Shown here: positions 195 to 15,633 of the stretch, piece after piece
Layout: each line of letters starts with the position of its first letter
Position numbering within the stretch: the first letter of the stretch is position 1
Virus record (IMG/VR): IMGVR_UViG_2563366924_000007
Source: a virus
Taxonomy: Duplodnaviria; Heunggongvirae; Uroviricota; Caudoviricetes
Direction: 5' to 3' (one strand)
DNA length: 16,518 nt
The notes under the pieces: generated by a model
What the model saw: only the letters and a program-made list of their open reading frames with translations
Databases searched by the model: none
Told to the model about the DNA's origin: nothing
Position numbers and translations under genes: made by a program

Positions 195-1856
195 TCAAAT
201 CCCGGTAAATTCGGCAAGTCGCTGCTTATGGCTATCGCTCATATCGAAAGCAAAATCCTCATGCTCAGCCTGGAAGGTGCCGAACGCCATCAGCGCAGAT
301 ACCGCAGGATCTATCTTGTTAGAGGATTTCTTTTTGTTGGGCTTAATGTTGGCGTTAGCGTCGGACTCCATCACCACGTTACCAATCGCCCAGGCCAGAA
401 CCGGATCGCCCCGATGGCGCACCACCTTGCGGTTTACGAACACCTCAAAGGATTTCGCTACCGGACTGAATTTAAGATAGGTTTGCGGGAACGGCTCCAC
501 ATCGAGGCCCGCCCCCTGCAGCTGGGTGCGTAGATGCGTGGCGTTCCACGTATCAAAACCCACCAGCCGAATGTTGAATGTTTCGGCATCACGCAAAATA
601 TCGTCACGGATGCGGTCATAGTCGATACAGTCACCGGGTGTGGTGCGTATCCAGCCCGCTTTCACCCACTGGCGGTAGATGGCGCGGTTTTTGTTGGCGA
701 CGTTAAGCAACTGTGCTTCCGGCAGATAATGACGGGTCAGGAGCCTGATCTCCCTGTCGAACGGGAAAGCGTAGCTCACGCTGGTGATATCGCTGGTAGA
801 GGACAGGTCAAACCCGGCGTAGCACTCCCTTCCGGCCAGATCTTCTTCGGTATAGTCGAGTGCACAGGCATCCCATGCACCGGCACCCATCCACGGCGTG
901 GAGCCCTGACACCAGATATTGAAACGTTTGGTCAGCATTTCCACCCACTGCGACGGTATGCCCCGTGCTTTCTGGATGGTGGATTCCAGTTTCGCCGCGT
1001 CAACGGATACATGCAGGTTAGGGTTGGCCTTGATCCACATTTCCGGCTGTTCAACCTCGCTTTCGTCGTCCAGCTCGTAGATCAGGACAAACAGCGAATC
1101 GTTGCTCTCTTCCCCGGCCAGAATCTGGCAGCAGTAGTCGTAATGCTGTTTGCAGGCGGAGACAACATTACTCCCGGCGGTGGTAATGGCGAACAGAACC
1201 GCCTCAGGACGTGCGCCCATGCCCAGCTCAAGCGCGGAATAAACGCCGTTATCCGGGTGAAGATGGTACTCATCGACAATCGCCAGGCTGGGGTTAGTGC
1301 CCTCAATGGTAGCCGCCTTCGCCGCCAGTGGCTTTAACAGGCTGTTGCTCTTCGGAAAAATGACCTTGTGCGCCTGAATATTGACGCGCTTTTTCAGCGG
1401 TTTTGACAGCAGACACATCTGGCGGGCATCGTCGAACACGATTCGGGCCTGATCCCGGCTCACCGCCGCCGTGTAGATATCCTGCTGGCCCTTCTCCATC
1501 ACCAGAAACCAGTTAGCCAGCATGGCGGCCACAGTGGATTTGGCATTCTTGCGCGGCACCTCAATAAACGCGCTGCTGTACTTCCGGCGGCCTGACTCCC
1601 TGACTTTAAAGCCCAGCAGGTTAGCAAAGGCGAACTGCTGCCACGGCTCCAGCTCGATTGGCTGGCCGCGCAGCGGGCCTTTGACGTGTGGACAGAGCCG
1701 GGAAAAGGCAATAAACCGCTCTACGGTCGCCGTATCGAACTCATAACGGGGGTCATTCAGGTCTGAAAAGTACCTCTCCACGGCCTGTTTTACACGCTTA
1801 CAGGCCGGAATTTCGCCCGTTTTTATCGCGTTTGCGTACTCATTCCAGACGGTCAA
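195..1856 (-). CDS. terL: Phage terminase large subunit
   Basis: 553 aa; P-loop-like segment IEVPRKNAKST, Walker B-like LAIVDEYHL, size and position after terS. Only in-frame start that includes the P-loop is TTG at 1856, preceded by a GAGGAAG Shine-Dalgarno-like sequence. Confidence 0.88.
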   Translation of the reverse strand: MTVWNEYANAIKTGEIPACKRVKQAVERYFSDLNDPRYEFDTATVERFIAFSRLCPHVKGPLRGQPIELEPWQQFAFANLLGFKVRESGRRKYSSAFIEVPRKNAKSTVAAMLANWFLVMEKGQQDIYTAAVSRDQARIVFDDARQMCLLSKPLKKRVNIQAHKVIFPKSNSLLKPLAAKAATIEGTNPSLAIVDEYHLHPDNGVYSALELGMGARPEAVLFAITTAGSNVVSACKQHYDYCCQILAGEESNDSLFVLIYELDDESEVEQPEMWIKANPNLHVSVDAAKLESTIQKARGIPSQWVEMLTKRFNIWCQGSTPWMGAGAWDACALDYTEEDLAGRECYAGFDLSSTSDITSVSYAFPFDREIRLLTRHYLPEAQLLNVANKNRAIYRQWVKAGWIRTTPGDCIDYDRIRDDILRDAETFNIRLVGFDTWNATHLRTQLQGAGLDVEPFPQTYLKFSPVAKSFEVFVNRKVVRHRGDPVLAWAIGNVVMESDANANIKPNKKKSSNKIDPAVSALMAFGTFQAEHEDFAFDMSDSHKQRLAEFTGI

Positions 1857-2196
1857 GCTCGTCTTCCTCTTCCGTTTCTACCGGATTCCGGCGGCGGCTC
1901 ACCGGATCAAAGCCCAGCAGCGACGACATTTTAATCATGATTTTTTCAGCATCGGCCTTTGCACTCAGTGCCGGATTTCGGCTCTCGCCACCCTGGCTGT
2001 TAACAATGCTGAACCCACGGCTGGCAAGGTCTTCCACGGCTTTGCGGTACATCGAATAGTTGACGCAAAAAAGCTCAAGGTTGTTCCAGTCGGCGGGTGT
2101 CAGATCGCCACGCTCGGCCAGTTGCTTCGCTTTCGCTTTCCACTGCTGCGCGGCTAACTCATCAAGGTAAGCTGGCGGTTTTGGTGGTCTTGCCAT
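1840..2196 (-). CDS. terS: Terminase small subunit (P27-like)
   Basis: Translation from ATG at 2196 (MARPPKPPAYLDELAAQQWKAKAKQLAERGDLTP...) resembles P27-family small terminases; the longer track ORF to 2364 is an alternative-start extension. Stop overlaps the terL start. Confidence 0.8.
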   Translation of the reverse strand: MARPPKPPAYLDELAAQQWKAKAKQLAERGDLTPADWNNLELFCVNYSMYRKAVEDLASRGFSIVNSQGGESRNPALSAKADAEKIMIKMSSLLGFDPVSRRRNPVETEEEDELDRLE

Positions 2197-2249
2197 AAAA
2201 ATTTCTCGTTTCCATCGCGTTTTATTTTCAAAAAAATCACCGTGCGTAA

Positions 2250-2320
2250 AAATTTGAGGGGGCGGGCGGTGCCTGGCACCTTGAGGTTTGTCCTGAAAAC
2301 CTCCCCCACCCCGTCCATGC
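2250..2320. other. Candidate cos/packaging site in the HNH-terS intergenic region
   Basis: Perfect 13-bp palindrome GGTGCCTGGCACC (2268-2280) flanked by a G-tract (GAGGGGGCGGGCGG) and a C-tract (CCTCCCCCACCCCGTCC), in a roughly 275-bp non-coding gap just upstream of terS. Confidence 0.3.
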
Positions 2321-2471
2321 GGCCTGTCAGCGGTTGCGGAAGCATTCCCGCAACTCCCGTTCACGCTCGCTCATACGCTGCACAGGCTGGCGCTCATTGC
2401 GTCTGCTTCGCCCCTGCATGAAGCCATCACGGCAGCGCATCAATGATCGGTACAGATTCACCACGTCTTTC

Positions 2472-2915
2472 TCATTCATTTCTGCCCTCATACATCCAGT
2501 CATTGCGATGGGCTGCACGCTCTTCCTGCTCACGGTACAGCCCTGCTTTGCGCTTCGCTTTGGTGGTTGGGTCTTGCTGTGTGGTCTTCTGGTTATGATG
2601 CGCCTGGCATAACGGCTGGTGATTCCACTCAGGCCAGAACAGAACGTCATCACCGCCGTTGATAGGGATGATGTGATCGACAATCTTTGCAGGAACGTAG
2701 AGGCCCAGCTTCTGACACTCAACGCACAGCGGATAGCGCTTAAGGTACTGAGCGCGGTACTTCTCCCATGAGGCTGAATAACCACGGGCGCGACGGTGGC
2801 CGCGTCTGGCATCCTCTGCCCGCCACGCTTCCCGCTTATGCTCGTCACACTTGCCAGACTTCACCCGTTTATTGCATCCCGGCTCTGTGCACCGGCGTAG
2901 TGGTTGCCACGGCAT
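2472..2915 (-). CDS. HNH endonuclease (packaging-associated)
   Basis: Cys/His-rich HNH-type motifs (CVECQKLG, HIIPINGGDD, NHQPLCQAHHNQK); ATG at 2915 overlaps the upstream stop; sits immediately before terS. Confidence 0.85.
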   Translation of the reverse strand: MPWQPLRRCTEPGCNKRVKSGKCDEHKREAWRAEDARRGHRRARGYSASWEKYRAQYLKRYPLCVECQKLGLYVPAKIVDHIIPINGGDDVLFWPEWNHQPLCQAHHNQKTTQQDPTTKAKRKAGLYREQEERAAHRNDWMYEGRNE

Positions 2916-3208
2916 CAGTACACCCCCACATCTCGGTAGACAGACCACAACGCAGAGACAGCCATCGGTATCTCTTTGGCGTCGGTGTCACCAATCATCG
3001 TGCGGTACTCGTACAGCTGAGAGACGTACATCAAACAGCCGATCTTGATAGCCGGGGTGAACTCCAGACCGTTATCAAATCGCTTGCCGATATGCTTCTG
3101 GCAGACCTCCAGCGCAGCTTCGATGTACGCCTGTATCAACGTATCTTCGTAATCATCATCAATACGGCAATGCAGCTTTGCTTCTTCCAGACCGATTAAC
3201 TCACTCAT
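2915..3208 (-). CDS. gp6-like head-tail connector / DNA-packaging protein
   Basis: Translation from ATG at 3208 (MSELIGLEEAKLHCRIDDDYEDTLIQAYIEAALEVCQKHIG...) matches the gp6-like connector pattern; GGAGG Shine-Dalgarno upstream; the track ORF to 3460 is an extension. Confidence 0.75.
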   Translation of the reverse strand: MSELIGLEEAKLHCRIDDDYEDTLIQAYIEAALEVCQKHIGKRFDNGLEFTPAIKIGCLMYVSQLYEYRTMIGDTDAKEIPMAVSALWSVYRDVGVY

Positions 3209-3539
3209 TGAAAATGCCTCCCTTGCACAGCAGCTCAAGCCGGGTGTGATCCACATCAGGAATGACGGCCACGATGCCGTAAACCTGCCCCCGGACGTTT
3301 GGCGAGCGGTACAGAATGCGGTTTGCGGTGGTGATATCGTCGCGGTAGCGCGTCCAGATTCGCACAGTGGCTTCGGAGTAAAGCGCCCCGGAAGACATGC
3401 GCTCACGCCCGCTGATAGCACGAATTTCAGCCCAGACTGAGGCAAGGTCAGCCCATTCATAGATAACCTGACCAGTCGGGTCGCGGTGAGATTCCGACTT
3501 CTGAAAGGTAACGCGGCGTTTCATCTTTCCGGCTCTCAT
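3201..3539 (-). CDS. Head-tail adaptor / head closure protein
   Basis: 112 aa with the pattern typical of this family (VWAEIRAISGRE...IWTRYR...LELLCKG); ATGA overlap with the portal stop. Confidence 0.75.
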   Translation of the reverse strand: MRAGKMKRRVTFQKSESHRDPTGQVIYEWADLASVWAEIRAISGRERMSSGALYSEATVRIWTRYRDDITTANRILYRSPNVRGQVYGIVAVIPDVDHTRLELLCKGGIFNE

Positions 3540-4771
3540 ACGTCACCGTCCTTGCTGTCTTTACTGATCTTCACTTCCTGCTTCCATGCCTGACTGAACT
3601 CGTCACCACCTTCACGCGGCGGCATACCCTCACGCTCACGGGCTTCGTTCGGGTTCATAATCCCGTTCTTGATACCGCGCTCATAAGTGGCGTAACGCTC
3701 GGTAGGTGTGGCACGGAGAAGGTCAGCGGAGTCAAACTCCACCAGATAGCGGGTTCCCGGAACGGGAGAGGCCACCAGCAGCGCGGATTTAATTTGTTGC
3801 TCGAAGTTCGCCAGCCACGGACGCATCGTCATGGTGAGAAATGCGCGGCTCGCCTCACTAAAATTGCTGTAGGTGCTGTTGCTGTATTCCTGCAAGAAGA
3901 TGGGAGAAACGTTAAACATGCGGGCAATGTCTTCAATGGAGAAGCGCCGGGAGGCCAGCCACTCAGCATCCTGATTGCTCATGCCAAGTTGCTTATAGTC
4001 CATGCCACCTTCAAGGATCGGCGTTTTCCCGGCATTTCTGGCACCTTTGTAACGTTCCAGCGCATCCATTGCCTGTTTGCCCTTCACGCTGTCGAGCCAT
4101 TCTTTAGTTACCACTACCCCCGAAGCCATCATCCCATCTTTCATAATGCTGGCACCGTGGCGCTGTTGTGCCAGACCTAACCCCAGCGCCTCACGGCAGA
4201 TGGTGATCGGCGAACGCCCCAGAAAACCATCATCGGTGGAGTAACGCAGGTGCAGAATCTCTTCCTGCAGGTAGGTGCGCACTGCCCCGGTAAACGGTTC
4301 AGTAACGGTGTATTTGTACTTATGCTGGCCGATACGCTCAGGAACAACCGCCCCCGGCGCATACGGATGCAGGGATTGCGGCTGGCCGTCACGGCCCCAC
4401 TGGATCACCGCATAGGCGTTACCATTCAGCAGGCAATGACGCATCATCGTGCGCTTGAACTGGTAAGGCGTCTGACAGTCGTTCGGTTGCTCGTTAAGGA
4501 GAAAATCCACCGGGTGATTGCTTAGCCACTCCCGCGCTTCTCGGCCGTTATCGTTGCGCACGCGGTAGAGGTAGCAGGGCATTGTTGCCACTGCCTCGCT
4601 GATAACTGATATGGCGTTCATGACCGCCGGCAGAGATTCCGCAGTACCGGCAGACACATATTCGCCTGATCCGGTATTTGGAATCCCTGCCATCGCCAGA
4701 AACTCATCAATCGTCATGCTGCGCTGTTCGGATGGCTCAGATTTACGGCCAAAAGGCCAGATATTCCACAT
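3536..4771 (-). CDS. Phage portal protein (HK97-type)
   Basis: 411 aa; position between protease and adaptor; sequence character of HK97-family portals. Confidence 0.88.
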   Translation of the reverse strand: MWNIWPFGRKSEPSEQRSMTIDEFLAMAGIPNTGSGEYVSAGTAESLPAVMNAISVISEAVATMPCYLYRVRNDNGREAREWLSNHPVDFLLNEQPNDCQTPYQFKRTMMRHCLLNGNAYAVIQWGRDGQPQSLHPYAPGAVVPERIGQHKYKYTVTEPFTGAVRTYLQEEILHLRYSTDDGFLGRSPITICREALGLGLAQQRHGASIMKDGMMASGVVVTKEWLDSVKGKQAMDALERYKGARNAGKTPILEGGMDYKQLGMSNQDAEWLASRRFSIEDIARMFNVSPIFLQEYSNSTYSNFSEASRAFLTMTMRPWLANFEQQIKSALLVASPVPGTRYLVEFDSADLLRATPTERYATYERGIKNGIMNPNEAREREGMPPREGGDEFSQAWKQEVKISKDSKDGDV

Positions 4772-4772
4772 A

Positions 4773-5333
4773 TCACAGCCCCGCTAAGTCAGCCCAGCGT
4801 CGGCGGTTATCACCAGCACGGCGCAGTTCAGGATGTTGGGAGAACAGAGAACGGTGCGCAATTTCCACGCCGGACTCAGGGTAAGCAGGCATAGAAGTAA
4901 CGGTGATCTCCCGCAGCTCGGCAGCGGTAACAGTGCGAATATACGGTGTAGGAGTAATATCCCAGGACTCTTTCAGCGCACGGAATCCGAAGCTCATGCC
5001 GGAAATGTCTCCACGCTCCACCAGCTCCAGCACATCATTGCCAAGTTGGGTGTTTGGCGGGGTCAGCTCGAAACGCAGCCCGGTATCATCTTCGGACAAC
5101 ACCAGCGTGCCGGATTTGGTACGCCCCAGCAGTTGGGTATAGTTATGCTCGTACAGTGCACGCACATCGCTACCGGATGCCAGGCTGTCTTTAAACGCCC
5201 CCGGCGCAAACTGCTCGCGGAACTCATCCCAGATCACCTCTGACAGGCTGTTCCAGCGCACGGCATAGCCCACCAGCTTTTTGTTGCTGGCGCTCAGTTC
5301 GGAGGTACGGATTTCAAAATCGATTGTTTTCAT
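4773..5333 (-). CDS. Prohead maturation protease (HK97-type)
   Basis: 186 aa; resembles HK97-family prohead proteases; GGAG Shine-Dalgarno before the ATG at 5333. Confidence 0.85.
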   Translation of the reverse strand: MKTIDFEIRTSELSASNKKLVGYAVRWNSLSEVIWDEFREQFAPGAFKDSLASGSDVRALYEHNYTQLLGRTKSGTLVLSEDDTGLRFELTPPNTQLGNDVLELVERGDISGMSFGFRALKESWDITPTPYIRTVTAAELREITVTSMPAYPESGVEIAHRSLFSQHPELRRAGDNRRRWADLAGL

Positions 5334-5351
5334 TGTTGGACTCCACAGAGG

Positions 5352-5378
5352 GCAAAAAGGGGCCGAAGCCCCTTAAAC
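5352..5378 (-). terminator. Intrinsic terminator-like hairpin between capsid and protease genes
   Basis: On the minus strand GGGGC-uucg-GCCCC followed by UUUUUG. Confidence 0.5.
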
Positions 5379-5384
5379 GTCAGA

Positions 5385-6551
5385 TCAGGAACCGGAACCG
5401 GAAAGCTCAAGCACCTTGATGGCGTTGGAGTCCACCACACCACCGCCTAGGTATTTATCGGTGTGCACCTTGTAGAAACCAGGTTCGGTGATGTTGTCGG
5501 GGCGGGTACGCACGCCAGTGGTGTGATCCACGATGAAGTAACCGCGCTTAAAGTCGCCGACTGCCAGGAACGCTTCACCCGCAGCCGCATCAGGCATGGT
5601 TTCCAGATATTGAACCGGACGGCCAAGGAGGGTATCGGGAGAGTCAGCGACGAGACGATCACGCCAGATGTAATCCCCGTTGCCGTTTTTCAGCTTTTGC
5701 AGCGTAGCGGCAGTGTTGGAGTTCATCACCCATACGGCATTTTTACGGTATTTGGCTTTCAGCTTATACAGCAGGTCGATCAATCCATCAGAGGAAACGG
5801 CAGCAGCTTCCATTTTCTCCAGCGTTCCGAACGGACGGGTTTTATCGCTGGTGGCCGCACGCGGATAGGACAGGAACCCTTTGGATTTTTTATCACCGTC
5901 GCCGTTCACAAAGTCGGTTTCTTCGGTAGCAGTGAAGGTGTCGGTGATTTCGGAAGACAGCCAACCCAGAATATCAACTTCGGAGAAGTCGAGAATTTCC
6001 TGAGTGGTTTTCGGGTAGGCGTAGATCGGGTTGAGTTTGATATCAACGCGCTCCATCTTAGGTGTGCTGGTTTCGGTACGCGCTTCGCCTTCGGTGCCGC
6101 GCTTAACGGTAGTGCCACCCACTGATACCAGCTTCTGGTATTCGTTGGTTTTGGTGGTCTTCACCGTAGCGATGGAGCGCATAACGCTGTCATCCTGCAA
6201 CTGGCGCATGATCTCTTTGTCCAGCTCAGGGATAACGGTATAGCCGCCGTCAGCCTGCACCAACGTGGAGAGAGAGCGGGTATCGCCGGTCATGATGTAG
6301 TGGCGCAGCTCATCGTTGCTTACACCTTTACCTTCAACAGAAGTACCAGGCAGATTGCGCTGATCGTCGGCGACGGCCTCAAGGCGGGTAATTTCAACTT
6401 CAAGCGCATCAGCCTGGGCGCGGAGTTCATCGAACTGCTTGCCCTCTTCATCGTTCAGGCTTCGCTTTTCGCTGTCAGCTTTTTCCAGCATGGAACGCAT
6501 CTGGGTTTTGAGTGCGGCTTTCTGCTGGCGTAATTCAAGTAATTTCTTCAT
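5385..6551 (-). CDS. Major capsid protein (HK97-fold) with N-terminal coiled-coil delta domain
   Basis: From ATG at 6551 (MKKLLELRQQKAALKTQMRSMLEKADSEKR...) a charged coiled-coil N-terminus then an HK97-like capsid body; the track ORF to 6668 adds an implausible N-terminal extension. Confidence 0.88.
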   Translation of the reverse strand: MKKLLELRQQKAALKTQMRSMLEKADSEKRSLNDEEGKQFDELRAQADALEVEITRLEAVADDQRNLPGTSVEGKGVSNDELRHYIMTGDTRSLSTLVQADGGYTVIPELDKEIMRQLQDDSVMRSIATVKTTKTNEYQKLVSVGGTTVKRGTEGEARTETSTPKMERVDIKLNPIYAYPKTTQEILDFSEVDILGWLSSEITDTFTATEETDFVNGDGDKKSKGFLSYPRAATSDKTRPFGTLEKMEAAAVSSDGLIDLLYKLKAKYRKNAVWVMNSNTAATLQKLKNGNGDYIWRDRLVADSPDTLLGRPVQYLETMPDAAAGEAFLAVGDFKRGYFIVDHTTGVRTRPDNITEPGFYKVHTDKYLGGGVVDSNAIKVLELSGSGS

Positions 6552-6575
6552 GGAGTGGTTTCCGTAACAATTAAC

Positions 6576-6672
6576 GTTGAGACGTGAAACCAGCGCTTGG
6601 AGGGATGTCCACCTGGAAAGGAAACCGTCGCAGAACGGGAAAGAACCAGGTGGACAGTGGCGGCTCACGTCT
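6576..6672. promoter_or_regulatory. Nested inverted repeats in the capsid-operon leader/promoter region
   Basis: Perfect 11-bp inverted repeat TGTCCACCTGG (6606-6616) / CCAGGTGGACA (6646-6656) inside an outer 8-bp inverted repeat AGACGTGA (6580-6587) / TCACGTCT (6665-6672). Confidence 0.35.
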
Positions 6673-6813: not shown

Positions 6814-7326
6814 ATGGACTTCGATTTTGATGATATGGCATACCCGGATATTTTTTTAATTTCCGGCGAGGAGTTTAAAGGAAGCCGGAACACAGGAAAA
6901 AATCAGGTAGATATCCCGTTTACTGACGAACCGCAAATTGAATTGGGTGATATTCTGATTCAGAAGATTGGAAGCCGCGAGTTAAGCCTTAAAGTTGTCG
7001 ATCTTTCAATATCAAAGAATGGAACGCTGAACGTAGGTACAACGCATCCTCACTTACTTACGTTATCCGTAGAGAATCTTTCTTCCGACGCACACAGGAC
7101 AGCAAAGAGCATGAATACTTTTAATATTGGCTCCGTCAGTGGTGAGCAAGTTCAAATAGGTGAAAGTAATCATATGCTGGTGAATATCAGTATTACTGAA
7201 CTTGTCGAGAAAGTAGCCAAATCTGGCGATCCACAGGCTAAATCAATGTTGAAACAGTTACTGGAAAATAGCACCGTTGCCAGTATCGTTGGCGCTGGCG
7301 CTTCCGCGCTGTTAGGTCTGCTTTAA
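6814..7326 (+). CDS. Hypothetical protein, AT-rich, with C-terminal hydrophobic Gly/Ala-rich tail (170 aa)
   Basis: Clean ORF with a GGGGGA Shine-Dalgarno-like sequence before the ATG; opposite orientation to neighbours; C-terminus VASIVGAGASALLGLL looks like a membrane anchor. No recognised domain. Confidence 0.6.
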   Translation: MDFDFDDMAYPDIFLISGEEFKGSRNTGKNQVDIPFTDEPQIELGDILIQKIGSRELSLKVVDLSISKNGTLNVGTTHPHLLTLSVENLSSDAHRTAKSMNTFNIGSVSGEQVQIGESNHMLVNISITELVEKVAKSGDPQAKSMLKQLLENSTVASIVGAGASALLGLL

Positions 7327-7330
7327 AATA

Positions 7331-7351
7331 TGGCCTGGGAACACCAGGCCA
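7331..7351. terminator. Hairpin between the convergent genes
   Basis: TGGCCTGG-gaaca-CCAGGCCA, perfect 8-bp stem; a U-rich tail follows on the minus-strand transcript. Confidence 0.5.
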
Positions 7352-7372
7352 CTAGCCTACATGGCAGGATGA

Positions 7373-7708
7373 TTATTCTTTATCCAGCCCCCACTGATAG
7401 AAAGCCCAGCTTGCCGTTGATTGTGCGCTATGGATAGCGTTCTCAAGGCCAGAGGTTGGGTACGACAAATCAGCCGCCATCCTCTGTAGAAGATCGAGGT
7501 AAGCGCTGGCGTCTTTCGACAACTCTTGCCCCCCTTCTTCCAGCCCAGACTGGTACGATTCCAGATCAAGTTTTTCAGAAGTGACAAAAGCGCTCAGAGC
7601 CAGAAAATCCGTCACCGTAATCTCATCTTTATTTGAAAGCTCATCAACGGCGCTGTAGAGAAACTTAACATCGCTCATATGCCCGTTATCTTTGCCAATC
7701 AGTTTCAT
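7373..7708 (-). CDS. Hypothetical small acidic protein (111 aa)
   Basis: ATG at 7708 preceded by AAGAGG at good spacing; acidic composition; sits just downstream of the iteron origin. No recognised domain. Confidence 0.6.
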   Translation of the reverse strand: MKLIGKDNGHMSDVKFLYSAVDELSNKDEITVTDFLALSAFVTSEKLDLESYQSGLEEGGQELSKDASAYLDLLQRMAADLSYPTSGLENAIHSAQSTASWAFYQWGLDKE

Positions 7709-7744
7709 TAATGACCTCTTTATTTTTCACGTATATATACAAAA

Positions 7745-8030
7745 CTATGTTGGTTCAGTTAGTTCAGTTGGTTCAATTTGTAAAGATCATTGTTTTATAA
7801 GGATTATTTTCCGATGAGTGAACCAACAAAGCCCCGATTTGAACCAACATTGGGTATTTTCATGTTGGTTCAGCCCATGAGGTTCTAAAATGTTGGTTCA
7901 AACTGCCCGTTTGTTGGTTCAAAACTGATATTTGTTGGTTCAGTGTTGGTTCGTTTTTTTGACATTAAACCCATATAAAACAGCCATATGAACATAACCA
8001 ATAAACACTGAACCAACTGAACCAACATTA
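7745..8030. repeat. Iteron array, putative origin of replication
   Basis: At least 11 copies of TGTTGGTTCA or its reverse complement in four clusters (about 7749-7776, 7819-7849, 7863-7953, 8009-8026) with AT-rich spacers, directly 3' of the replication gene. Confidence 0.7.
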
Positions 8031-8050
8031 ACAACCCTCACATGTGTAAT

Positions 8051-10186
8051 TTATTCTTCTCCATCTTCCGCAACCTGGTGAAGCACATAAACGTTAATTT
8101 GACGCCCATCAATACGCGGGGATTTCTGCTGGTATCCACGCCCGCTGGACGGCTCAGAAAGCAAGCCAGCAGCGGCAAGCACGCGGGCAAACTGCCTGGC
8201 GTTAAAGCCCTGAGCTATCTCCTTCTCAAACGTTGCGGGGAACGTATAGAACACCAGCGGCGCATCATCATGGCTGCTTTTGCGCTTTCGATACCCGGCC
8301 AAATCGCGAATTGGCATACTGGACGGATCATAGGGCAACGGTGCAAAGCGGCTTAAACCGTAGGCATTCAGGAACGCCTCGCACTGCTCGATGATCTGCT
8401 GGTGCTCTTTGTTACCCGTGCCGAACTCTTTCACCCAGGCGTTAAAGCTATGCTGGATAGCGTCACGGCTGGCCTGTTCACTCCATCCGGTGATTGATGC
8501 ACCAGTTACCAGCGCGGCTTCGAGGATTGCAAAACGTTCAGCCACGCGGTGTACCTGCTCACCGTAGTCAGCCGGGATGAGGCCGCGCCAGCGCGTTTGC
8601 GCGTCACGCACCGCCTGTTTAGCCTCCTGCTGGTTAGCCGCCAGCCATTTAACCCACTCACGCCCCGCCGCCCCGTGGTTATCAATCCAGGCTTCTTTCA
8701 GTGCGTCAGCATGAGCCTTGCCGTTTGGCAGACCGTTAAAAGCCGTCGATTTCTCCATAGGGATGTTGAGCAAGCGCACCAGTTGGCCCGCTTTCACTTT
8801 CAGCCCACCAGCAGCCAGGAAGGTTTCAATATCCATTTCCCCGGTGCTGATCGCCACAGTGCGCCAGCGTTTAAGCTCCCGATTGCCGCCCTCTTTGGCT
8901 CCCTGCAACTTTCCGGCACCGTTAAACAGGGTGTAGGCAGACGTAGCAACATCTTTGGCACTGCTGCCCTGTCCTACCTCATCAAGCGGTAACAGGCTGT
9001 CGTTATGCGCCTCCGCTTCGTTTGCTATGCCAAGCGCAGTACCGTACCAGGTAAGCCGCAACGCATCAGGCTCACCCCACAGGCTGCTCGCAATATTGGC
9101 GGTAGTGGTCTTACCGGCGCTCGACTGCTCGAACAAATGGACGCCGAAACCATCAGCCCCCACCAGGCCAATAAGCGGCGCGGATAATGCCGCTGCCACG
9201 CCCAGCATCATGGACGGATTGCCCCCGGCCAGACGGGCGACGGAATCCCGCCAGGTGGCAGCAGTACCAGCAATGGCATACCCGGAAGATGCAGCGCTGC
9301 GACCGTTAAAGAGAATGGGCGTCTCTGGATCACCAATCACTTCACCATCAGGCATGATATATGCGCCGTGATGCCAGCCAGTGGTATGGGTGATAATCCA
9401 TTCCCGATCAGTGCCGCTTTGCTGCAACCAGTCGGCCAGAATCGCCCGGAATGTGCTTTTAGTGGTCACATTCACCCCACCAGCTTTAAGTGAGCGCCAG
9501 CCGTCGCGCTCACCGATATCAGCACAGGGGATCGCCCTGGTAATATCTTCATGGCCACGCGGCGAACGCCAGCGCAAAACAAGATAGCGCTCTGCCCCGT
9601 CACTACCGGAGCCGACCACCTCAAGAGGCGAGCACAGCCACGTTTCGTTATTGATGATCTCGCCACTATCCTTGTCCACCTTTGGCGTGATCCAGTACAG
9701 GCCATCGCTCCGGCTCTCCACGCGGGGTTTGAGTTCATCGCCCGGTTCAGGCTTTGGCTCCCGTTTTTTTACAGGCAGGTTCACCACAATGCTTTCCCCG
9801 CGTTCGGCCTCTTCTTTGAGACGTGGAAGCCTGCCCGTCCAGTCCTCCTTCGGCTGAGGCTCAAACATGCCATTAAACAGCCTGGCCTCTTTCACATCCG
9901 CCAGCGCCAGTTTGGTTGCGATAGTGCTTATCTGCATTTCGGAAAGTTCGCCAGCGCGGATCACACGAACACTGCGACGGCCGTTATCAACAATGTTTAA
10001 CCGTTCCAGTTCCGCAAGTTGCCTTTTACCCAGATAAACAGGCGGTACATCATCCCATGCCCTTTTACCTTCGCTCTCGATCCAGTGCTGCACATGCGAA
10101 TAGGCATCTTCACCCGCAAAGATAATCGCCTCGGTAAATTTATCTTTCGGCAGGAATTTAATGTTCGGGGCATTCTTCATCTTCAT
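8051..10186 (-). CDS. Replication initiator/helicase-like P-loop NTPase (satellite Rep type)
   Basis: 711 aa; Walker A-like SSAGKTTT and Walker B-like LLPLDEVG; adjacent to iterons; start translationally coupled to the upstream small ORF. Confidence 0.7.
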   Translation of the reverse strand: MKMKNAPNIKFLPKDKFTEAIIFAGEDAYSHVQHWIESEGKRAWDDVPPVYLGKRQLAELERLNIVDNGRRSVRVIRAGELSEMQISTIATKLALADVKEARLFNGMFEPQPKEDWTGRLPRLKEEAERGESIVVNLPVKKREPKPEPGDELKPRVESRSDGLYWITPKVDKDSGEIINNETWLCSPLEVVGSGSDGAERYLVLRWRSPRGHEDITRAIPCADIGERDGWRSLKAGGVNVTTKSTFRAILADWLQQSGTDREWIITHTTGWHHGAYIMPDGEVIGDPETPILFNGRSAASSGYAIAGTAATWRDSVARLAGGNPSMMLGVAAALSAPLIGLVGADGFGVHLFEQSSAGKTTTANIASSLWGEPDALRLTWYGTALGIANEAEAHNDSLLPLDEVGQGSSAKDVATSAYTLFNGAGKLQGAKEGGNRELKRWRTVAISTGEMDIETFLAAGGLKVKAGQLVRLLNIPMEKSTAFNGLPNGKAHADALKEAWIDNHGAAGREWVKWLAANQQEAKQAVRDAQTRWRGLIPADYGEQVHRVAERFAILEAALVTGASITGWSEQASRDAIQHSFNAWVKEFGTGNKEHQQIIEQCEAFLNAYGLSRFAPLPYDPSSMPIRDLAGYRKRKSSHDDAPLVFYTFPATFEKEIAQGFNARQFARVLAAAGLLSEPSSGRGYQQKSPRIDGRQINVYVLHQVAEDGEE

Positions 10187-10551
10187 CAGTGCAACACCTT
10201 ATTGGACATATCCGCGCCCAGGTCTTCATGCAGGTACTCAAGGTGGCAGCTTTTCACTATCTGCAACCCCATTTCGTTAATATCGCCATCGTCGGTAAAG
10301 CAGGTCAGCAGAATATCCCGCAAACGCCTTAACCCCTCATCGCGCCCGAATTCTTCAAAGCAGCCAAAAATCATATATTTCATCAATACGTTTTCAGTTA
10401 CGCGCGGCTCCAGCGTGAAGCGATAGCGGGCCATATACTTATCGCTTTCCACCAGCAAGGTTGCCGAACCGGTTTCCGCTATCTGGTGAGCAATACAGGT
10501 TTCGGTCAGTTTGCGGAACAATGGGCCTATCACTTCAAAAATATCGGTCAT
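10186..10551 (-). CDS. Hypothetical protein (121 aa), coupled to rep
   Basis: ATG at 10551 in an ATGA overlap with the upstream stop; its own stop overlaps the rep start. Confidence 0.5.
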   Translation of the reverse strand: MTDIFEVIGPLFRKLTETCIAHQIAETGSATLLVESDKYMARYRFTLEPRVTENVLMKYMIFGCFEEFGRDEGLRRLRDILLTCFTDDGDINEMGLQIVKSCHLEYLHEDLGADMSNKVLH

Positions 10552-12846: not shown

Positions 12847-13131
12847 CTACGCAGGTTTACGGTTGTAAGGGGTATTGACGTTCTCAACAGCAGGTGGATT
12901 GCGAACCCACCAAAGAACATCTGACAGAAGCCATGCGCAACTATTACGGCCAAAGTGGCAGCGTGGCGGGAATTTACCTTCGTTCTCCATATACCAGCGG
13001 GTGGAACGGGAAAGGCTGGTTATTTCGAAGCATTCACTTTCACGAATACGGCGATCAAACTTAATGCCATATTCTGCGAGAATGGTGCGGCGTTGTTCAG
13101 GTGTTGGCGGGGTAAAAAGAGTATTTGACAT
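12847..13131 (-). CDS. alpA: AlpA-family transcriptional regulator / excisionase-like protein
   Basis: HTH segment ITSLSRSTRWYMENEGKFPPRCHFGRNSCAWLLSDVLWWV; strong GGAGG Shine-Dalgarno before the ATG at 13131. Confidence 0.7.
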   Translation of the reverse strand: MSNTLFTPPTPEQRRTILAEYGIKFDRRIRESECFEITSLSRSTRWYMENEGKFPPRCHFGRNSCAWLLSDVLWWVRNPPAVENVNTPYNRKPA

Positions 13132-13235: not shown

Positions 13236-14042
13236 TCATTTCCTACGCCTATTTTTTTGCTCAATCAACCTCTCCCGGATTTCTCTCTCAAACTTTTCCA
13301 ACGAAAAATTTGCAAGATTTTTTTCGAAAAAAGGCCGAATAGTTTCACAGAGTTTCTTTTCTCCGACTGATAGATCAGGGAAAATCGAACCGGCAATTAC
13401 ACTACTGCTTATCCTGTTTCCTGTAATTTTTTGCCAGCAGAACAGGTCAGCATAGGGGAAGATTCCATAACTTATTATCTTCCTTCTGGCTACTTCCCAA
13501 GAATTTATTGATAGTTCATTATTTGGGTCTGGAATATTTAAGGAATTTCGCCATGATGAAAGCAAAGATGATAAGTCTTCAATTAAAAATTCATCAGGAT
13601 AACGTAAATCCAATTTAACAAAGAAATCATCCCCGAAGTTATCAATCAGATTAATACAGTCCAGCAACCCCAAAGTATCAGCATCATCATATTCATCAAC
13701 TACTTTTTTAGAGTGCATTATTTTGAATATATCGTGACGCTGTAAAGGCTCAATCAGCATTGACGAACCAAGCCGTTTACCTGCATTTGAGTTATCTTCC
13801 TGCATATCGGATTGCACGCAATCAACACCAGCAAAAGCATCCTCACTATATTTTCTGTCAGCTACTGGATTAGACATTATTATTTTTAAATCATCTTCAT
13901 CTATCCATTTCTCATAGTCTGCGACCATATAATGACGCATTAATAACTGATTAAAAAACTCTCTATCATCTAATGATTCAAAAGTTTTATATTTCCCTAT
14001 ATCGAAATACTCCGGCAAATCGCTTTTCTTGTTAATTAACAT
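13236..14042 (-). CDS. Hypothetical protein (268 aa), markedly AT-rich, adjacent to the integrase; candidate cargo gene
   Basis: Clean ORF with a GAGGGTG Shine-Dalgarno-like sequence; by eye far more AT-rich than the flanking integrase and alpA; acidic, no recognised catalytic motif. Confidence 0.6.
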   Translation of the reverse strand: MLINKKSDLPEYFDIGKYKTFESLDDREFFNQLLMRHYMVADYEKWIDEDDLKIIMSNPVADRKYSEDAFAGVDCVQSDMQEDNSNAGKRLGSSMLIEPLQRHDIFKIMHSKKVVDEYDDADTLGLLDCINLIDNFGDDFFVKLDLRYPDEFLIEDLSSLLSSWRNSLNIPDPNNELSINSWEVARRKIISYGIFPYADLFCWQKITGNRISSSVIAGSIFPDLSVGEKKLCETIRPFFEKNLANFSLEKFEREIRERLIEQKNRRRK

Positions 14043-14133: not shown

Positions 14134-15360
14134 TTAATCTCTATTCGCTACAGGTAACAGAACAACATTTTGATGATTACCCGCAAGAAGTTCTAAGCGG
14201 TCATACCACTTGTTCAGCGCGTCCAGCTTCTCCGGCAAGTACAGACTACGGTTATAAATCGCCATAACTCCCGGCATTGAATGGCCCAGCAACTGTTCAA
14301 CAACGTGCGGAGCGATACCCATATTATTCATATGCGTTGCAAGCGTTCGCCGTAGATCATGCAATGTCCAAGGTTCAGAATGCCCCAGTTTTTTATAAAC
14401 ACTACGGCCCCACTGGCTAACCGCTTCGCTATTCTTCACAACCCCAAGAAGGTAGCCGGATGATTTTGTTTCATCGTGGAGCATTTCAATAAATGAACGC
14501 ATCGCCTCCGGAACTGGACGCACAATCTTTTCACCGCCTTTACTATGCGCTTTTGGTACTGTCCACATCCACGCCTCCATATCCCATTCGGCCCACTCTG
14601 ACAATCTGGCCTCCTGGGTGCGGCAACCAAACAAAGTAGTGATCCTGAGCAAGTTTGTGTAGTAAGGCAGAAAAACATCGCCGGACGATATAGCAGCCCA
14701 CAATCCCCCAACCTCTTTATCTTTCAGTACACGATCTTTTTTCGCCTGCTTTTTACCAACATCGGGAATACTCAAATCTTCAAGGGCGGTACTGACGGCG
14801 TAACGGCGAACGCGGCAGAATTTCAGAGCCTGCTTACACATCTGGAATACATAACCAGCAGCAACCGGCGTTTTCTTTTTCATCCTGTCAAAGCAGTCAA
14901 GCCAGTAACGGGTTTCGCAGTCAGCGAGCGCCATTTTCCCAATATAAGGGTAAATGTGTTTGCGCAGCTCCGCTTTATGCCGCTCAACGTTCGCACGGTT
15001 TTCTTCCGCATATTCGCGTATCCAGTATTCGATAGCTTCCTGCACCGTGACCGGTTTAAGCGTTTCCTGAGTAGTTAGCGCCAACTGGTGCTTTGGGTCT
15101 TTACCAGAGGCCAGCCACTGACGACATTTATCACGCGAGGAACGGGCCTCTTTGAGACTCATATCAGGGTAGCGCCCCAGAGTCAGCCGATGCAGCTTCT
15201 GCCCGTCGAGTCGGTAAGTAAACACCCAGCTAATGCCACCAGCTTTCGTTACCTTAGCGCTCAACCCGGCACCATCAGCATAAAACTCAATCTTACTGGC
15301 CGGGATGCCATGTAATCCCTTTAACTTCCTGTCGCTCAGTTTGTTAAGTTCGCCAGCCAT
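14134..15360 (-). CDS. int: Tyrosine site-specific integrase (P4-like)
   Basis: 408 aa with catalytic-domain pattern (R in FGCRTQEARL, HDLRRTLATH, LLGHS, Y in AIYNRSLY) and an N-terminal arm-binding-like region. Confidence 0.9.
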   Translation of the reverse strand: MAGELNKLSDRKLKGLHGIPASKIEFYADGAGLSAKVTKAGGISWVFTYRLDGQKLHRLTLGRYPDMSLKEARSSRDKCRQWLASGKDPKHQLALTTQETLKPVTVQEAIEYWIREYAEENRANVERHKAELRKHIYPYIGKMALADCETRYWLDCFDRMKKKTPVAAGYVFQMCKQALKFCRVRRYAVSTALEDLSIPDVGKKQAKKDRVLKDKEVGGLWAAISSGDVFLPYYTNLLRITTLFGCRTQEARLSEWAEWDMEAWMWTVPKAHSKGGEKIVRPVPEAMRSFIEMLHDETKSSGYLLGVVKNSEAVSQWGRSVYKKLGHSEPWTLHDLRRTLATHMNNMGIAPHVVEQLLGHSMPGVMAIYNRSLYLPEKLDALNKWYDRLELLAGNHQNVVLLPVANRD

Positions 15361-15403: not shown

Positions 15404-15533
15404 GAATTGCTTGCATAATAGCATAAACAACAAAAAGCACTGGAACAATATACAGTTACATTTTCATTTAACTGATTGATTTTAAATAAAATATAAAAAC
15501 CACCGCAAAGCATGAAAACAGCTAATCTGACAG

Positions 15534-15608: not shown

Positions 15609-15633
15609 TATAGGTGTCACAAAGGGAGTGACC

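What the first reader, a model, noticed from the sequence alone, without database searches (positions are those of the whole stretch)
7745..8030. Dense bidirectional iteron array marks the replication origin
Seen: at least 11 copies of TGTTGGTTCA in both orientations, in four clusters separated by AT-rich spacers, directly after the Rep gene. Established: iterons beside the initiator gene are the hallmark of satellite and plasmid origins.
Basis: partly seen in the sequence, partly recalled or inferred. Interest (0 to 1): 0.5.

Follow-up and report, generated by a model that had tools for sequence, protein, structure and literature searches.

The report
Replication origin of a phage satellite
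The repeats are real and are almost certainly the replication origin of a capsid-forming phage satellite island of enterobacteria, where the island's own helicase-initiator binds; this is the expected layout for such islands, so the finding is sound but ordinary.

Summary
Observation confirmed. Twelve copies of GTTGGTTCA (10 exact, 2 with one mismatch), in both orientations, lie at 7748-8027 in the 342-bp gap after the Rep stop codon. About 1 match to the 10-mer is expected by chance in the whole window.

The window is a roughly 15-kb capsid-forming phage-inducible chromosomal island (cf-PICI), placed between fis and yhdJ in a 98%-identical E. coli copy. Rep is a DUF927 helicase homologous to the SaPIbov1 Rep. 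That family is reported to bind iterons placed directly 3' of rep.

In 62 related loci, the iteron sequence tracks the last ~40 residues of Rep (AUC 0.95) better than the helicase core (AUC 0.76). Some Reps with 96-98% identical cores but different C-termini have different iterons.

The layout is stereotyped across at least 12 specificity classes. Arrays have 6 or 12 iterons, in modules of six arranged around a spacer that is AT-rich in both window modules. No DnaA box or IHF site is present.

Novelty: a new member of a known kind, the SaPI/PICI-type origin. Interest is low to moderate. The 6/12 iteron count and the swappable C-terminus/iteron pairs are the most useful extras.

The parts
8051..10186 (-). 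rep: a 711-aa replication initiator-helicase. It has an N-terminal ~130-aa domain of unknown function, a DUF927 AAA+ helicase core (residues ~160-440 and beyond), and a C-terminal ~100-aa putative iteron-recognition domain.
   Evidence: Pfam DUF927 E=4.7e-50. phrog_1139 'DNA primase' E=1e-184. SaPIbov1 Rep 8TCH E=1e-13. NCBIfam Cch1 helicase E=3e-11, below its cut-off. Related C-terminal domains hit Pfam HTH_56 'Cch helix turn helix', best E=2.3e-5.
8009..8027 (-). Proximal module, rep-side cluster: 2 tandem iterons 9 bp apart (8009-8018 AGTTGGTTCA, 8018-8027 TGTTGGTTCA), pointing toward the proximal spacer.
7954..8008 (.). Proximal AT-rich spacer (55 bp, about 72% AT). Its sequence is free to vary among relatives but its length and AT-richness are kept. 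Candidate DNA-melting site.
   Evidence: alignment; stability profile; spacer table
7891..7953 (+). Proximal module, far-side cluster: 4 iterons (7891, 7912, 7933, 7944) spaced 21, 21 and 11 bp apart, which is helical phasing. They point toward the proximal spacer.
7819..7872 (.). Distal module, inner cluster: iterons at 7819-7828 (-), 7840-7849 (-) and 7863-7872 (+).
   Evidence: A ~140-bp insertion in L006 falls between this module and the proximal one, so the two modules are separable.
7776..7818 (.). Distal AT-rich spacer (43 bp, about 76% AT). Its sequence, ATTTGTAAAGAnnnTTGTTTTATAAGG, is conserved and matches the spacer of the 6-iteron minimal origins of relatives. It holds the only GATC in the region (7785). 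Candidate melting site or factor-binding site.
7748..7775 (+). Distal module, outer cluster: 3 tandem iterons 9 bp apart (the middle one degenerate, GTTAGTTCA), pointing toward the distal spacer.
7731..7745 (-). Conserved motif GTTTTGTATATATAC directly beyond the last iteron, 25-30 nt upstream of the start of the next gene. It is conserved across iteron classes whatever gene follows. Its function is unresolved; it may be a promoter -10 element or an unwinding/priming element.
   Evidence: no canonical sigma-70 match
7373..7708 (-). First gene downstream of the origin: 111 aa, phrog_7232, function unknown. It bounds the intergenic region.

Best explanation
The array is the replication origin of a capsid-forming phage-inducible chromosomal island (cf-PICI).

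Proposed mechanism, step by step:
1. After induction, the island's unidirectional operon produces Rep. Rep is a self-loading hexameric DUF927 helicase. (Inferred by homology to SaPIbov1 Rep and Cch.)
2. The C-terminal ~40-100 residues of Rep recognise the 9-10-bp iteron TGTTGGTTCA. This domain is probably a Cch-type winged helix/HTH. (Inferred from co-variation.)
3. Twelve iterons form two six-iteron modules, 7748-7872 and 7891-8027. In each module the iterons on either side point toward an AT-rich spacer of 43-55 bp. Their spacings of 9, 11 and 21 bp put the well-spaced sites on one face of the helix. (Shown by the sequence.)
4. Rep bound on both sides of a spacer distorts and melts it, and Rep rings load onto the opened strands, probably as two hexamers, starting bidirectional unwinding without DnaA. 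(Inferred from SaPI biochemistry. No DnaA box or IHF site is present here.)
5. The copies made are then packaged by the island's own HNH/TerS/TerL into island-made capsids. (Established for cf-PICIs, inferred here.)

Which spacer melts is not known, nor whether both modules fire or one acts as an enhancer.
For: The enrichment is far beyond chance: 11 matches against 1.03 expected, all within 280 bp, and 12 with the 9-mer core.

The array starts 23 nt after the stop of a DUF927 helicase gene. That gene is homologous to SaPIbov1 Rep 8TCH (E=1e-13). SaPI-type Reps are reported to bind iterons directly downstream of rep through a C-terminal winged helix, with at least 2 opposed iterons on each side of an AT-rich centre (PMC9371898, PMC7581432).

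Gram-negative PICIs are described as having the same organisation, and the EcCICFT073 rep-ori segment replicates a temperature-sensitive plasmid (PMC6092414).

The window has the cf-PICI gene set: int, alpA, rep, HK97 capsid, protease, portal, connectors, HNH, TerS and TerL, with no tail genes.

Co-variation: at least 12 iteron classes each pair with a distinct Rep C-terminal sequence. In 1891 locus pairs, sharing an iteron is predicted by identity of the last 40 residues (AUC 0.95) better than by identity of the helicase core (AUC 0.76). The window and L029 have cores 96% identical but iterons GTTGGTTCA and GTGGGTTAC. L037 and L041 have cores 98% identical but iterons GTTGGTTCA and GTTGTCTCA. 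L061 has a core only 58% identical to the window but the same iteron.

Footprint: iterons are invariant while the proximal spacer varies in sequence but keeps its length and AT content.

The layout is conserved. Of 78 loci, 33 have exactly 12 iterons and 14 have exactly 6. The same two peaks appear in 120 IMG/VR contigs. An O157:H7 island of the same gene layout as the published prototype EcCIEDL933, at the phoQ-side site, has the same 12-site layout with the iteron GCGGGTTAT, and its Rep is 63% identical.

The same array follows rep in islands with different downstream genes. There are no DnaA or IHF sites, no Rfam family, and no credible ORF in the gap.
Against: Nothing was tested experimentally for this element. 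Rep binding, melting and origin firing are all inferred.

The fold of the C-terminal domain could not be confirmed. The AlphaFold models had pLDDT of 45-47. A profile search of the PDB found nothing. The window's own C-terminus does not hit Pfam HTH_56 directly.

The window's Rep lacks a recognisable primase, which relatives carry as a fused Zn-ribbon/TOPRIM domain. How synthesis is primed is therefore unknown.

In many relatives the second spacer is GC-rich, so the second module need not be a melting site. The conserved motif next to the outer triple of iterons suggests part of the array may also serve transcription.
Confidence: 0.85

Rival explanations
1. Split function. Only one six-iteron module is the true origin. 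The other module is an accessory Rep-binding element: a replication enhancer like P4 crr, a copy-control or handcuffing site, or an operator through which Rep controls the downstream packaging operon via the adjacent conserved TTTTGnTTATATA motif.
For: Fourteen related loci have only the six-iteron module, so six sites appear to be enough. In type-B arrays the second spacer is GC-rich, 26-42% AT. The two modules can be separated by a ~140-bp insertion, as in L006. The outer iteron triple abuts a motif conserved in all classes, 25-30 nt before the next start codon. P4 has a comparable iteron-bearing crr directly 3' of its alpha gene, required in cis, while initiation occurs elsewhere.
Against: In the window both spacers are AT-rich and among the least stable DNA in the region. 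The promoter scan finds no sigma-70 match on the relevant strand. All twelve iterons are equally well conserved. This is a refinement of the origin reading rather than an alternative to it.
Confidence: 0.3
2. The repeats are a packaging recognition site (cos/pac, TerS-binding repeats) for the island's own terminase.
For: The array lies between the replication and packaging modules. Terminase small subunits often bind repeated sites.
Against: The same array with the same layout follows rep in islands that lack the capsid/terminase module and have unrelated downstream genes (L003, L004, L005). The repeat sequence co-varies with the Rep C-terminus. The packaging module is found in 534 E. coli genomes, but the rep segment matched only 45 and the whole rep-ori segment only 8. 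The two are therefore inherited independently.
Confidence: 0.02
3. The inverted repeats act as a structured single-stranded DNA or RNA element, for example a hairpin origin, a single-strand initiation site or a regulatory RNA, rather than as protein-binding iterons.
For: Folded as single-stranded DNA, the region is much more stable than shuffled sequence (-55.3 kcal/mol, z=-6.6).
Against: That stability follows automatically from having the same 9-mer in both orientations. Tandem direct copies at 9, 11 and 21 bp have no role in a hairpin. No Rfam family reaches its threshold. The repeat tracks the Rep C-terminus, which a purely structural element would not do.
Confidence: 0.02
4. A chance or decaying repeat with no function.
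For: None beyond the general AT-richness of intergenic DNA.
Against: None of 200 shuffles reach the observed count. The sites are invariant across genera while the flanks diverge. The layout recurs in many loci across Enterobacterales and in one Pasteurellaceae locus, L085.
Confidence: 0.01

Closest known systems
SaPI replication origins with their Rep initiator-helicases (SaPIbov1 Rep, PDB 8TCH; SaPI1 and SaPI5 Reps)
   Same: The origin lies immediately downstream of rep. It has 6-12 short iterons in two opposed sets around an AT-rich region. The initiator is itself the replicative helicase. The window Rep core is homologous to SaPIbov1 Rep (E=1e-13) and both are DUF927 proteins (PMC7581432). 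Specificity resides in the C-terminal domain (literature: PMC9371898; here by co-variation).
   Different: The host is Gram-negative. The iterons are longer (9-10 bp against 5-6 bp). There is a fixed grammar of two six-site modules. There is no separate or fused recognisable primase. Binding has not been tested here.
Origins of Gram-negative PICIs, with EcCICFT073 pri-rep-ori as the tested example (Fillol-Salom et al. 2018, PMC6092414)
   Same: The island type and gene order are the same (int, alpA..., rep, ori). Iterons lie directly 3' of rep and flank an AT-rich stretch. The Rep N-terminal ~150 residues are homologous (41% identity, E=4e-30).
   Different: The EcCICFT073 helicase core is of the D5_N/Pox_D5 type, not DUF927. 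Its iteron is TGTCTACC, in a looser arrangement. EcCICFT073 makes no capsid of its own.
rep-ori module of an O157:H7 cf-PICI with the gene layout of the published prototype EcCIEDL933 (seen here in strain ATCC 43890)
   Same: The Rep architecture is the same, at 63% identity. The 12-iteron type-A layout is the same, including the terminal TATATA motif. The capsid-forming packaging module is the same.
   Different: The iteron is GCGGGTTAT rather than GTTGGTTCA, and the Rep C-terminus differs to match. The integration site differs (next to phoQ rather than between fis and yhdJ). Identity of this island with EcCIEDL933 was assumed from serotype and layout and was not checked. The origin was not mapped in the cf-PICI papers I could read (10.1101/2022.09.08.507074).
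Satellite phage P4: alpha primase-helicase with ori and crr
   Same: It is an E. coli satellite. Its iteron-bearing crr lies directly 3' of the initiator-helicase gene and is built of two repeated modules, each with 5 iterons in both orientations. The initiator is also the helicase.
   Different: P4 alpha (Zn-ribbon, TOPRIM, D5_N, Pox_D5) shows no significant similarity to the window Rep (E=0.5). P4 initiates at a separate ori 4.5 kb away. Here all the iterons are in one place. The P4 iteron is TGTTCACC.
Iteron plasmids (pPS10, F, R6K, RK2 type: Rep_3/RepA initiators)
   Same: Repeated initiator-binding sites lie beside the initiator gene, next to an AT-rich unwinding region.
   Different: The plasmid iterons are 17-22 bp tandem direct repeats in one orientation. 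They are bound by a winged-helix initiator that is not a helicase, and they depend on DnaA boxes and on host DnaB loading. Here the iterons are 9-10 bp in both orientations, there is no DnaA box, and the initiator is a helicase.
Origins of viruses with SF3 or MCM-like initiator-helicases (SV40 large T antigen, papillomavirus E1)
   Same: This is a resemblance in mechanism only. Short recognition sites in inverted arrangement nucleate two helicase hexamers that melt adjacent AT-rich DNA (an analogy also drawn in PMC7581432).
   Different: There is no sequence relationship. The DNA-binding domain is N-terminal in those proteins and appears to be C-terminal here.

Membership tests
SaPI/PICI-type rep-ori module | Origin located immediately 3' of the rep gene | tested here: met
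   The array at 7748-8027 ends 23 nt from the rep stop codon at 8051-8053.
SaPI/PICI-type rep-ori module | Multiple short iterons in two opposed sets flanking an AT-rich region (at least 2 on each side) | tested here: met
   Proximal module: 2 iterons, a 55-bp spacer of 72% AT, then 4 iterons. Distal module: 3 iterons, a 43-bp spacer of 76% AT, then 2 iterons plus 1.
SaPI/PICI-type rep-ori module | Initiator is a self-loading helicase of the SaPI Rep families (DUF927/SaPIbov1 type or D5/SaPI5 type) | tested here: met
   Pfam DUF927 E=4.7e-50. phmmer against SaPIbov1 Rep 8TCH E=1e-13. Hexamer formation and helicase activity cannot be tested with these tools.
SaPI/PICI-type rep-ori module | C-terminal winged-helix domain of Rep specifies the iteron | tested here: inconclusive
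   Co-variation strongly supports specificity in the C-terminus (AUC 0.95 against 0.76 for the core; natural swaps). The fold is not confirmed: AF2 pLDDT 45; no PDB profile hit; 5 of 21 related C-terminal domains hit Pfam HTH_56 (best E=2.3e-5), but the window's own does not.
SaPI/PICI-type rep-ori module | Rep-dependent autonomous replication of a cloned rep-ori segment; specific Rep binding to the origin | not testable with these tools
   This needs the plasmid-maintenance assay and the gel shift used for EcCICFT073 and the SaPIs (PMC6092414, PMC9371898).
Capsid-forming PICI (cf-PICI) | A ~15-kb island with int and alpA, transcribed in one direction, integrated at a chromosomal att site | tested here: met
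   int 14134-15360, AlpA 12847-13131, genes almost all on the minus strand. The 98%-identical copy in strain KFu015 lies between fis and yhdJ.
Capsid-forming PICI (cf-PICI) | Encodes its own capsid, protease, portal, head-tail connectors, HNH, TerS and TerL, but no tail or lysis genes | tested here: met
   Pfam hits for all eight functions at 195-6668. No tail or lysis genes appear in the annotated 98%-identical copy.
Capsid-forming PICI (cf-PICI) | Induction by a helper phage and use of helper tails | not testable with these tools
   Experimental property (10.1101/2022.09.08.507074).
P4-like satellite replication system | Alpha-type initiator (Zn-ribbon, TOPRIM, D5_N, Pox_D5) | tested here: not met
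   BLASTP of the window Rep against P4 alpha gives E=0.5. The Pfam architectures differ.
P4-like satellite replication system | Separate ori and crr, both bearing TGTTCACC iterons | tested here: not met
   All iterons lie in one locus. The only other near-matches in the window are three chance-level one-mismatch hits. The iteron sequence is different.
Iteron plasmid origin (Rep_3/RepA type) | 17-22-bp tandem direct iterons, DnaA box(es), and a Rep_3-family initiator that is not a helicase | tested here: not met
   The iterons are 9-10 bp and in both orientations. There is no DnaA box. The initiator is a DUF927 helicase.

The most novel reading that the evidence does not exclude
The number and layout of the sites may encode the stoichiometry of the initiator. 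Arrays in this Rep family come almost only as 6 or 12 iterons, in modules of six around a spacer. Each module could therefore act as a template that positions the six C-terminal DNA-binding domains of one Rep hexamer, with the full origin assembling a double hexamer. Together with at least 12 naturally swapped C-terminus/iteron pairs on nearly identical helicase cores, this would amount to a set of orthogonal, self-loading replicons whose specificity is set by about 40 residues. The conserved terminal TTTTGnTTATATA motif might couple origin occupancy to expression of the packaging genes.
Probability: 0.2. Interest if true: 0.5.

Novelty: new member of a known kind. Interest (0 to 1): 0.25.

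Why it matters
The result locates the origin and the probable specificity determinant of a cf-PICI, a satellite family that spreads between enterobacterial genera. Near-identical Rep proteins are recorded from Salmonella, Klebsiella and Enterobacter.

The practical value lies in the comparative by-products. One is a catalogue of cognate Rep C-terminus/iteron pairs, which predicts which islands can cross-replicate or are incompatible. It also offers orthogonal Rep-ori parts for vectors. The other is the 6-or-12-site rule, which gives a concrete and testable model of how a self-loading helicase is positioned on its origin.

The basic claim, that iterons next to rep mark the origin, is what specialists would expect for a PICI.

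Tried and rejected
1. Structure of Rep. The full-length AlphaFold2 model was poor (mean pLDDT 47.4), and only the N-terminal 130 residues were confident. The model of the C-terminal domain alone was also poor (pLDDT 45.3). A Foldseek search of the full-length model against the PDB gave no match with E<=0.001. The winged-helix claim therefore rests on analogy, on a beta-beta-helix-helix-beta-beta secondary-structure pattern, and on weak Pfam HTH_56 hits in relatives.

2. A profile of 21 C-terminal domains searched against PDB sequences gave nothing significant.

4. Host-factor sites. There is no DnaA box, no IHF consensus, and a single GATC.

5. The promoter and terminator scan found no sigma-70 promoter on the minus strand and no terminator in the gap.

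6. Rfam gave only sub-threshold hits to plant microRNA hairpins, caused by the inverted repeats.

7. ORFs within the gap are all under 50 aa and consist of repeat-derived peptides.

8. Literature searches for the iteron sequence itself returned only unrelated primers and the like.

9. PADLOC found no defence-system hits for the small or accessory genes.

10. The packaging-site, partition-site, attP arm-site and chance readings were considered and rejected, for the reasons given under the rival explanations. There are no par genes, and int lies 6 kb away.

Full report
**Observation.** The sequence at 7740-8030 contains the motif as described. TGTTGGTTCA with up to one mismatch occurs 11 times, all between 7748 and 8027. 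About 1.03 matches are expected in the whole 16.5-kb window, and none of 200 shuffles reached 11. With the 9-mer core GTTGGTTCA there are 12 copies in the array, 10 exact and 2 with one mismatch. The only other near-matches in the window are three scattered one-mismatch hits, which is what chance predicts. The array fills the 342-bp gap (35% GC) between the stop codon of a 711-aa minus-strand gene (8051-10186) and the start of a 111-aa gene (7373-7708). One detail of the description needs correcting. Only two inter-cluster gaps are AT-rich spacers, 7776-7818 and 7954-8008. The middle link is of ordinary composition.

**What the element is.** The window is almost a complete chromosomal island. 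A 98%-identical copy in E. coli KFu015 lies between fis and yhdJ. Reading along the minus strand, it encodes an integrase, an accessory gene, AlpA, a KilAC/AntA antirepressor-like protein, an Icd-like protein, several small unknowns, and Rep. The repeat array follows. After it come two unknowns, then an HK97-type capsid, prohead protease, portal, head completion and connector proteins, HNH, TerS and TerL. There are no tail or lysis genes. This is the gene set of a capsid-forming phage-inducible chromosomal island (cf-PICI; 10.1101/2022.09.08.507074).

**What Rep is.** Rep carries a DUF927 domain (E=4.7e-50). It is homologous to the solved SaPIbov1 replication initiator-helicase 8TCH (E=1e-13), and more weakly to the SCCmec helicase Cch.

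**What is already known about such origins.** In SaPIs the origin lies directly downstream of rep. It consists of 6-12 short iterons with an AT-rich centre and at least two opposed iterons on each side. Rep is a self-loading hexameric helicase whose C-terminal winged helix reads the iterons, apparently as two hexamers (PMC9371898, PMC7581432). [quoted passage not shown] The EcCICFT073 rep-ori segment supported plasmid replication that depended on both rep and ori (PMC6092414). I located that tested origin in CFT073. It has TGTCTACC iterons right after a D5-type Pri-Rep, with an AT-rich stretch between opposed copies.

**Comparative test of the interpretation.** I collected 80 loci encoding relatives of the window Rep, from Enterobacterales and Pasteurellaceae, plus close relatives from E. 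coli. In most of them an array of a locus-specific 8-10-mer starts roughly 20-30 nt after the rep stop codon.

The repeat sequence falls into at least 12 classes. Examples are GTTGGTTCA, GTTGTCTCA, CGTGGTTCA, GTCGGTTCA, GTGGGTTAY, ACGGGTTAT, GTCGGGTA, AGTGTGTCA, GTTGTACCA and TTGGGACTA. Each class goes with its own sequence in the last ~25-40 residues of Rep.

Over 1891 pairs of loci, sharing an iteron is predicted by identity of the last 40 residues with AUC 0.95. Identity of the helicase core gives only AUC 0.76. The clearest cases are natural domain swaps:
- The window Rep and the L029 Rep have cores 96% identical but different C-termini, and their iterons are GTTGGTTCA and GTGGGTTAC.
- L037 and L041 have cores 98% identical, and their iterons are GTTGGTTCA and GTTGTCTCA.
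- L061 has a core only 58% identical to the window but a similar C-terminus, and it has the same iteron.

This pattern is what a cognate protein-DNA recognition pair predicts. It also places the recognition determinant at the C-terminus, as in SaPI Reps.

In an alignment of seven arrays the iterons are invariant. The proximal spacer is free to change in sequence but keeps its length (about 55 bp) and its AT-richness.

The same array follows rep in islands whose downstream genes are unrelated (an SSB gene, PerC, hypotheticals) and which lack the capsid module. The packaging module is found in 534 of 5426 E. coli genomes. The 2.9-kb rep-ori query matched only 45 genomes, and in only 8 of those over at least 80% of its length. 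The array therefore belongs with rep and not with the terminase.

**Anatomy.** Read from the rep stop codon, the window array runs as follows:
- two tandem iterons, 9 bp apart;
- a 55-bp AT-rich spacer;
- four iterons of opposite orientation, spaced 11, 21 and 21 bp;
- one more iterons in that same orientation;
- two iterons in the first orientation, spaced 21 bp;
- a 43-bp AT-rich spacer;
- three tandem iterons of opposite orientation, 9 bp apart.

This gives two modules of six sites each. In each module the sites on the two sides of the spacer point toward it. A ~140-bp insertion in L006 falls exactly between the two modules.

Across the 78 loci analysed, the site count peaks sharply at 12 (33 loci, plus 5 with a distant thirteenth) and at 6 (14 loci). 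Among 120 IMG/VR contigs that contain a tandem iteron pair, the count again peaks at 6 (24 contigs) and at 11-12 (37 contigs).

The six-site minimal origins consist of three tandem iterons, the conserved spacer ATTTGTAAAGAnnnTTGTTTTATAAGG, and three opposed iterons. They are essentially the same sequence as window 7748-7849 read on the + strand. The module far from rep in the window is therefore an inverted copy of the minimal origin.

An O157:H7 cf-PICI has a Rep 63% identical to the window's and shows the same 12-site layout with the iteron GCGGGTTAT. I take this island to represent the published prototype EcCIEDL933, on the basis of serotype and gene layout, without having checked the identity.

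There are no DnaA boxes or IHF consensus sites in the array, no Rfam family, and no credible ORF. The strong predicted single-strand fold (z=-6.6) is an automatic result of having the same 9-mer in both orientations.

**Mechanism.** Three things are shown by the sequence and the comparisons: the sites, their phasing and orientation, and their co-variation with the Rep C-terminus. Two things are inferred by homology: that Rep is a hexameric self-loading helicase, and that its C-terminus is a Cch-type winged helix/HTH. Five of 21 related C-termini hit Pfam HTH_56 with a best E of 2.3e-5, but the window's own does not. Three further steps are inferred from SaPI biochemistry: that Rep bound on both sides of an AT-rich spacer melts it without ATP, that two hexamers load there, and that replication proceeds independently of DnaA. 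I put the probability that this array is the Rep-dependent origin of the island at about 0.85.

Several points stay open. It is not known which spacer opens. It is not known whether the second module is a second loading site or an enhancer or operator. In many relatives its spacer is GC-rich, which favours an accessory role there. Priming is also unexplained, because the window Rep lacks the Zn-ribbon/TOPRIM primase that relatives carry at the N-terminus.

**Comparison with known systems.** The array meets the sequence-testable defining features of a SaPI/PICI-type rep-ori module, and the island meets those of a cf-PICI. It is not a P4-type system. P4 alpha is unrelated in sequence, and P4 splits its iterons between the crr next to alpha and a distant ori. 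The position and two-module build of P4 crr are nevertheless a close functional parallel. It is not a plasmid-type iteron origin either: the iterons are short and in both orientations, there is no DnaA box, and the initiator is a helicase. In mechanism it resembles the origins of viruses whose initiator is also the helicase.

**Verdict.** The feature is a new member of a known kind, and a specialist would expect it at this position in a PICI, so interest is low to moderate (0.25). The points worth keeping are the 6/12-site grammar, the catalogue of swappable C-terminus/iteron pairs, the unexplained conserved motif beside the outer iteron triple, and the N-terminal Rep domain that replaces the primase.

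Noticed in passing
window 9797-10186 (minus strand; Rep residues 1-130): The Rep N-terminus is a separate alpha/beta domain that folds confidently (pLDDT 77-90) and has no Pfam match. It is shared at 41% identity with the N-terminus of the D5-type Pri-Rep of EcCICFT073, so the same domain is fused to two unrelated helicase cores. Close relatives of the window Rep carry a Zn-ribbon/TOPRIM primase in its place. No primase is recognisable anywhere in the window.
   Followed up: partly
window 7731-7745 (minus strand GTTTTGTATATATAC): This motif, directly after the last iteron triple, is conserved across nearly all iteron-specificity classes, including the Actinobacillus locus, and regardless of which gene follows. 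It lies 25-30 nt upstream of the next start codon. The scan does not call it a canonical sigma-70 promoter. It may be a promoter -10 element with Rep sitting on the -35 region, or an unwinding or priming element.
   Followed up: partly
window 7776-7803 (+ strand ATTTGTAAAGATCATTGTTTTATAAGG): This spacer sequence is conserved even between iteron classes, and it is the spacer of the six-iteron minimal origins. In the window this 'minimal origin' module is the one far from rep and is inverted relative to rep. In other layouts it abuts the rep stop codon.
   Followed up: partly
window 13236-14042 (minus strand): A DUF6387 protein of 268 aa sits in the variable slot between int and alpA. The 98%-identical island in strain KFu015 carries a different gene there. 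It has no PADLOC defence hit. It is a candidate accessory or cargo gene.
   Followed up: partly
window 6814-7326 (+ strand): A 170-aa ORF (phrog_5789, function unknown) is the only sizeable gene pointing against the otherwise one-directional island. It is conserved in the close E. coli copies.
   Followed up: no
window 8051-10186; proteins P0001-P0003: Rep proteins 96-99% identical to the window's are recorded from Salmonella enterica, Klebsiella quasipneumoniae and Enterobacter hormaechei. This fits cf-PICIs moving between genera.
   Followed up: no
PQ569648.1 (Klebsiella phage P12620-1), 100769-101110: It is the only record in the phage collection that holds this origin (98% identity). The record is 106.5 kb, and no feature is annotated under the match. 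It is probably a satellite inside, or co-assembled with, a 'phage' record.
   Followed up: no
L006 (about 4330-4470 of the locus), between the two iteron modules: A ~140-bp insertion splits the 12-iteron array exactly between its two six-site modules while leaving both intact.
   Followed up: no
window 195-6668 compared with 7300-10200: The island is a mosaic. Its packaging module has relatives in 534 of 5426 complete E. coli genomes. The rep segment matched only 45, and the whole rep-ori segment only 8. The same rep-ori type also occurs in islands without capsid genes.
   Followed up: partly
window 15628-16518 (+ strand): The right end of the window is the host yhdJ DNA adenine methyltransferase gene. 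The island's right boundary therefore lies between int (which ends at 15360) and 15628. That gap includes the least stable, most AT-rich DNA of the window, around 15460-15500, which is presumably the att region.
   Followed up: no
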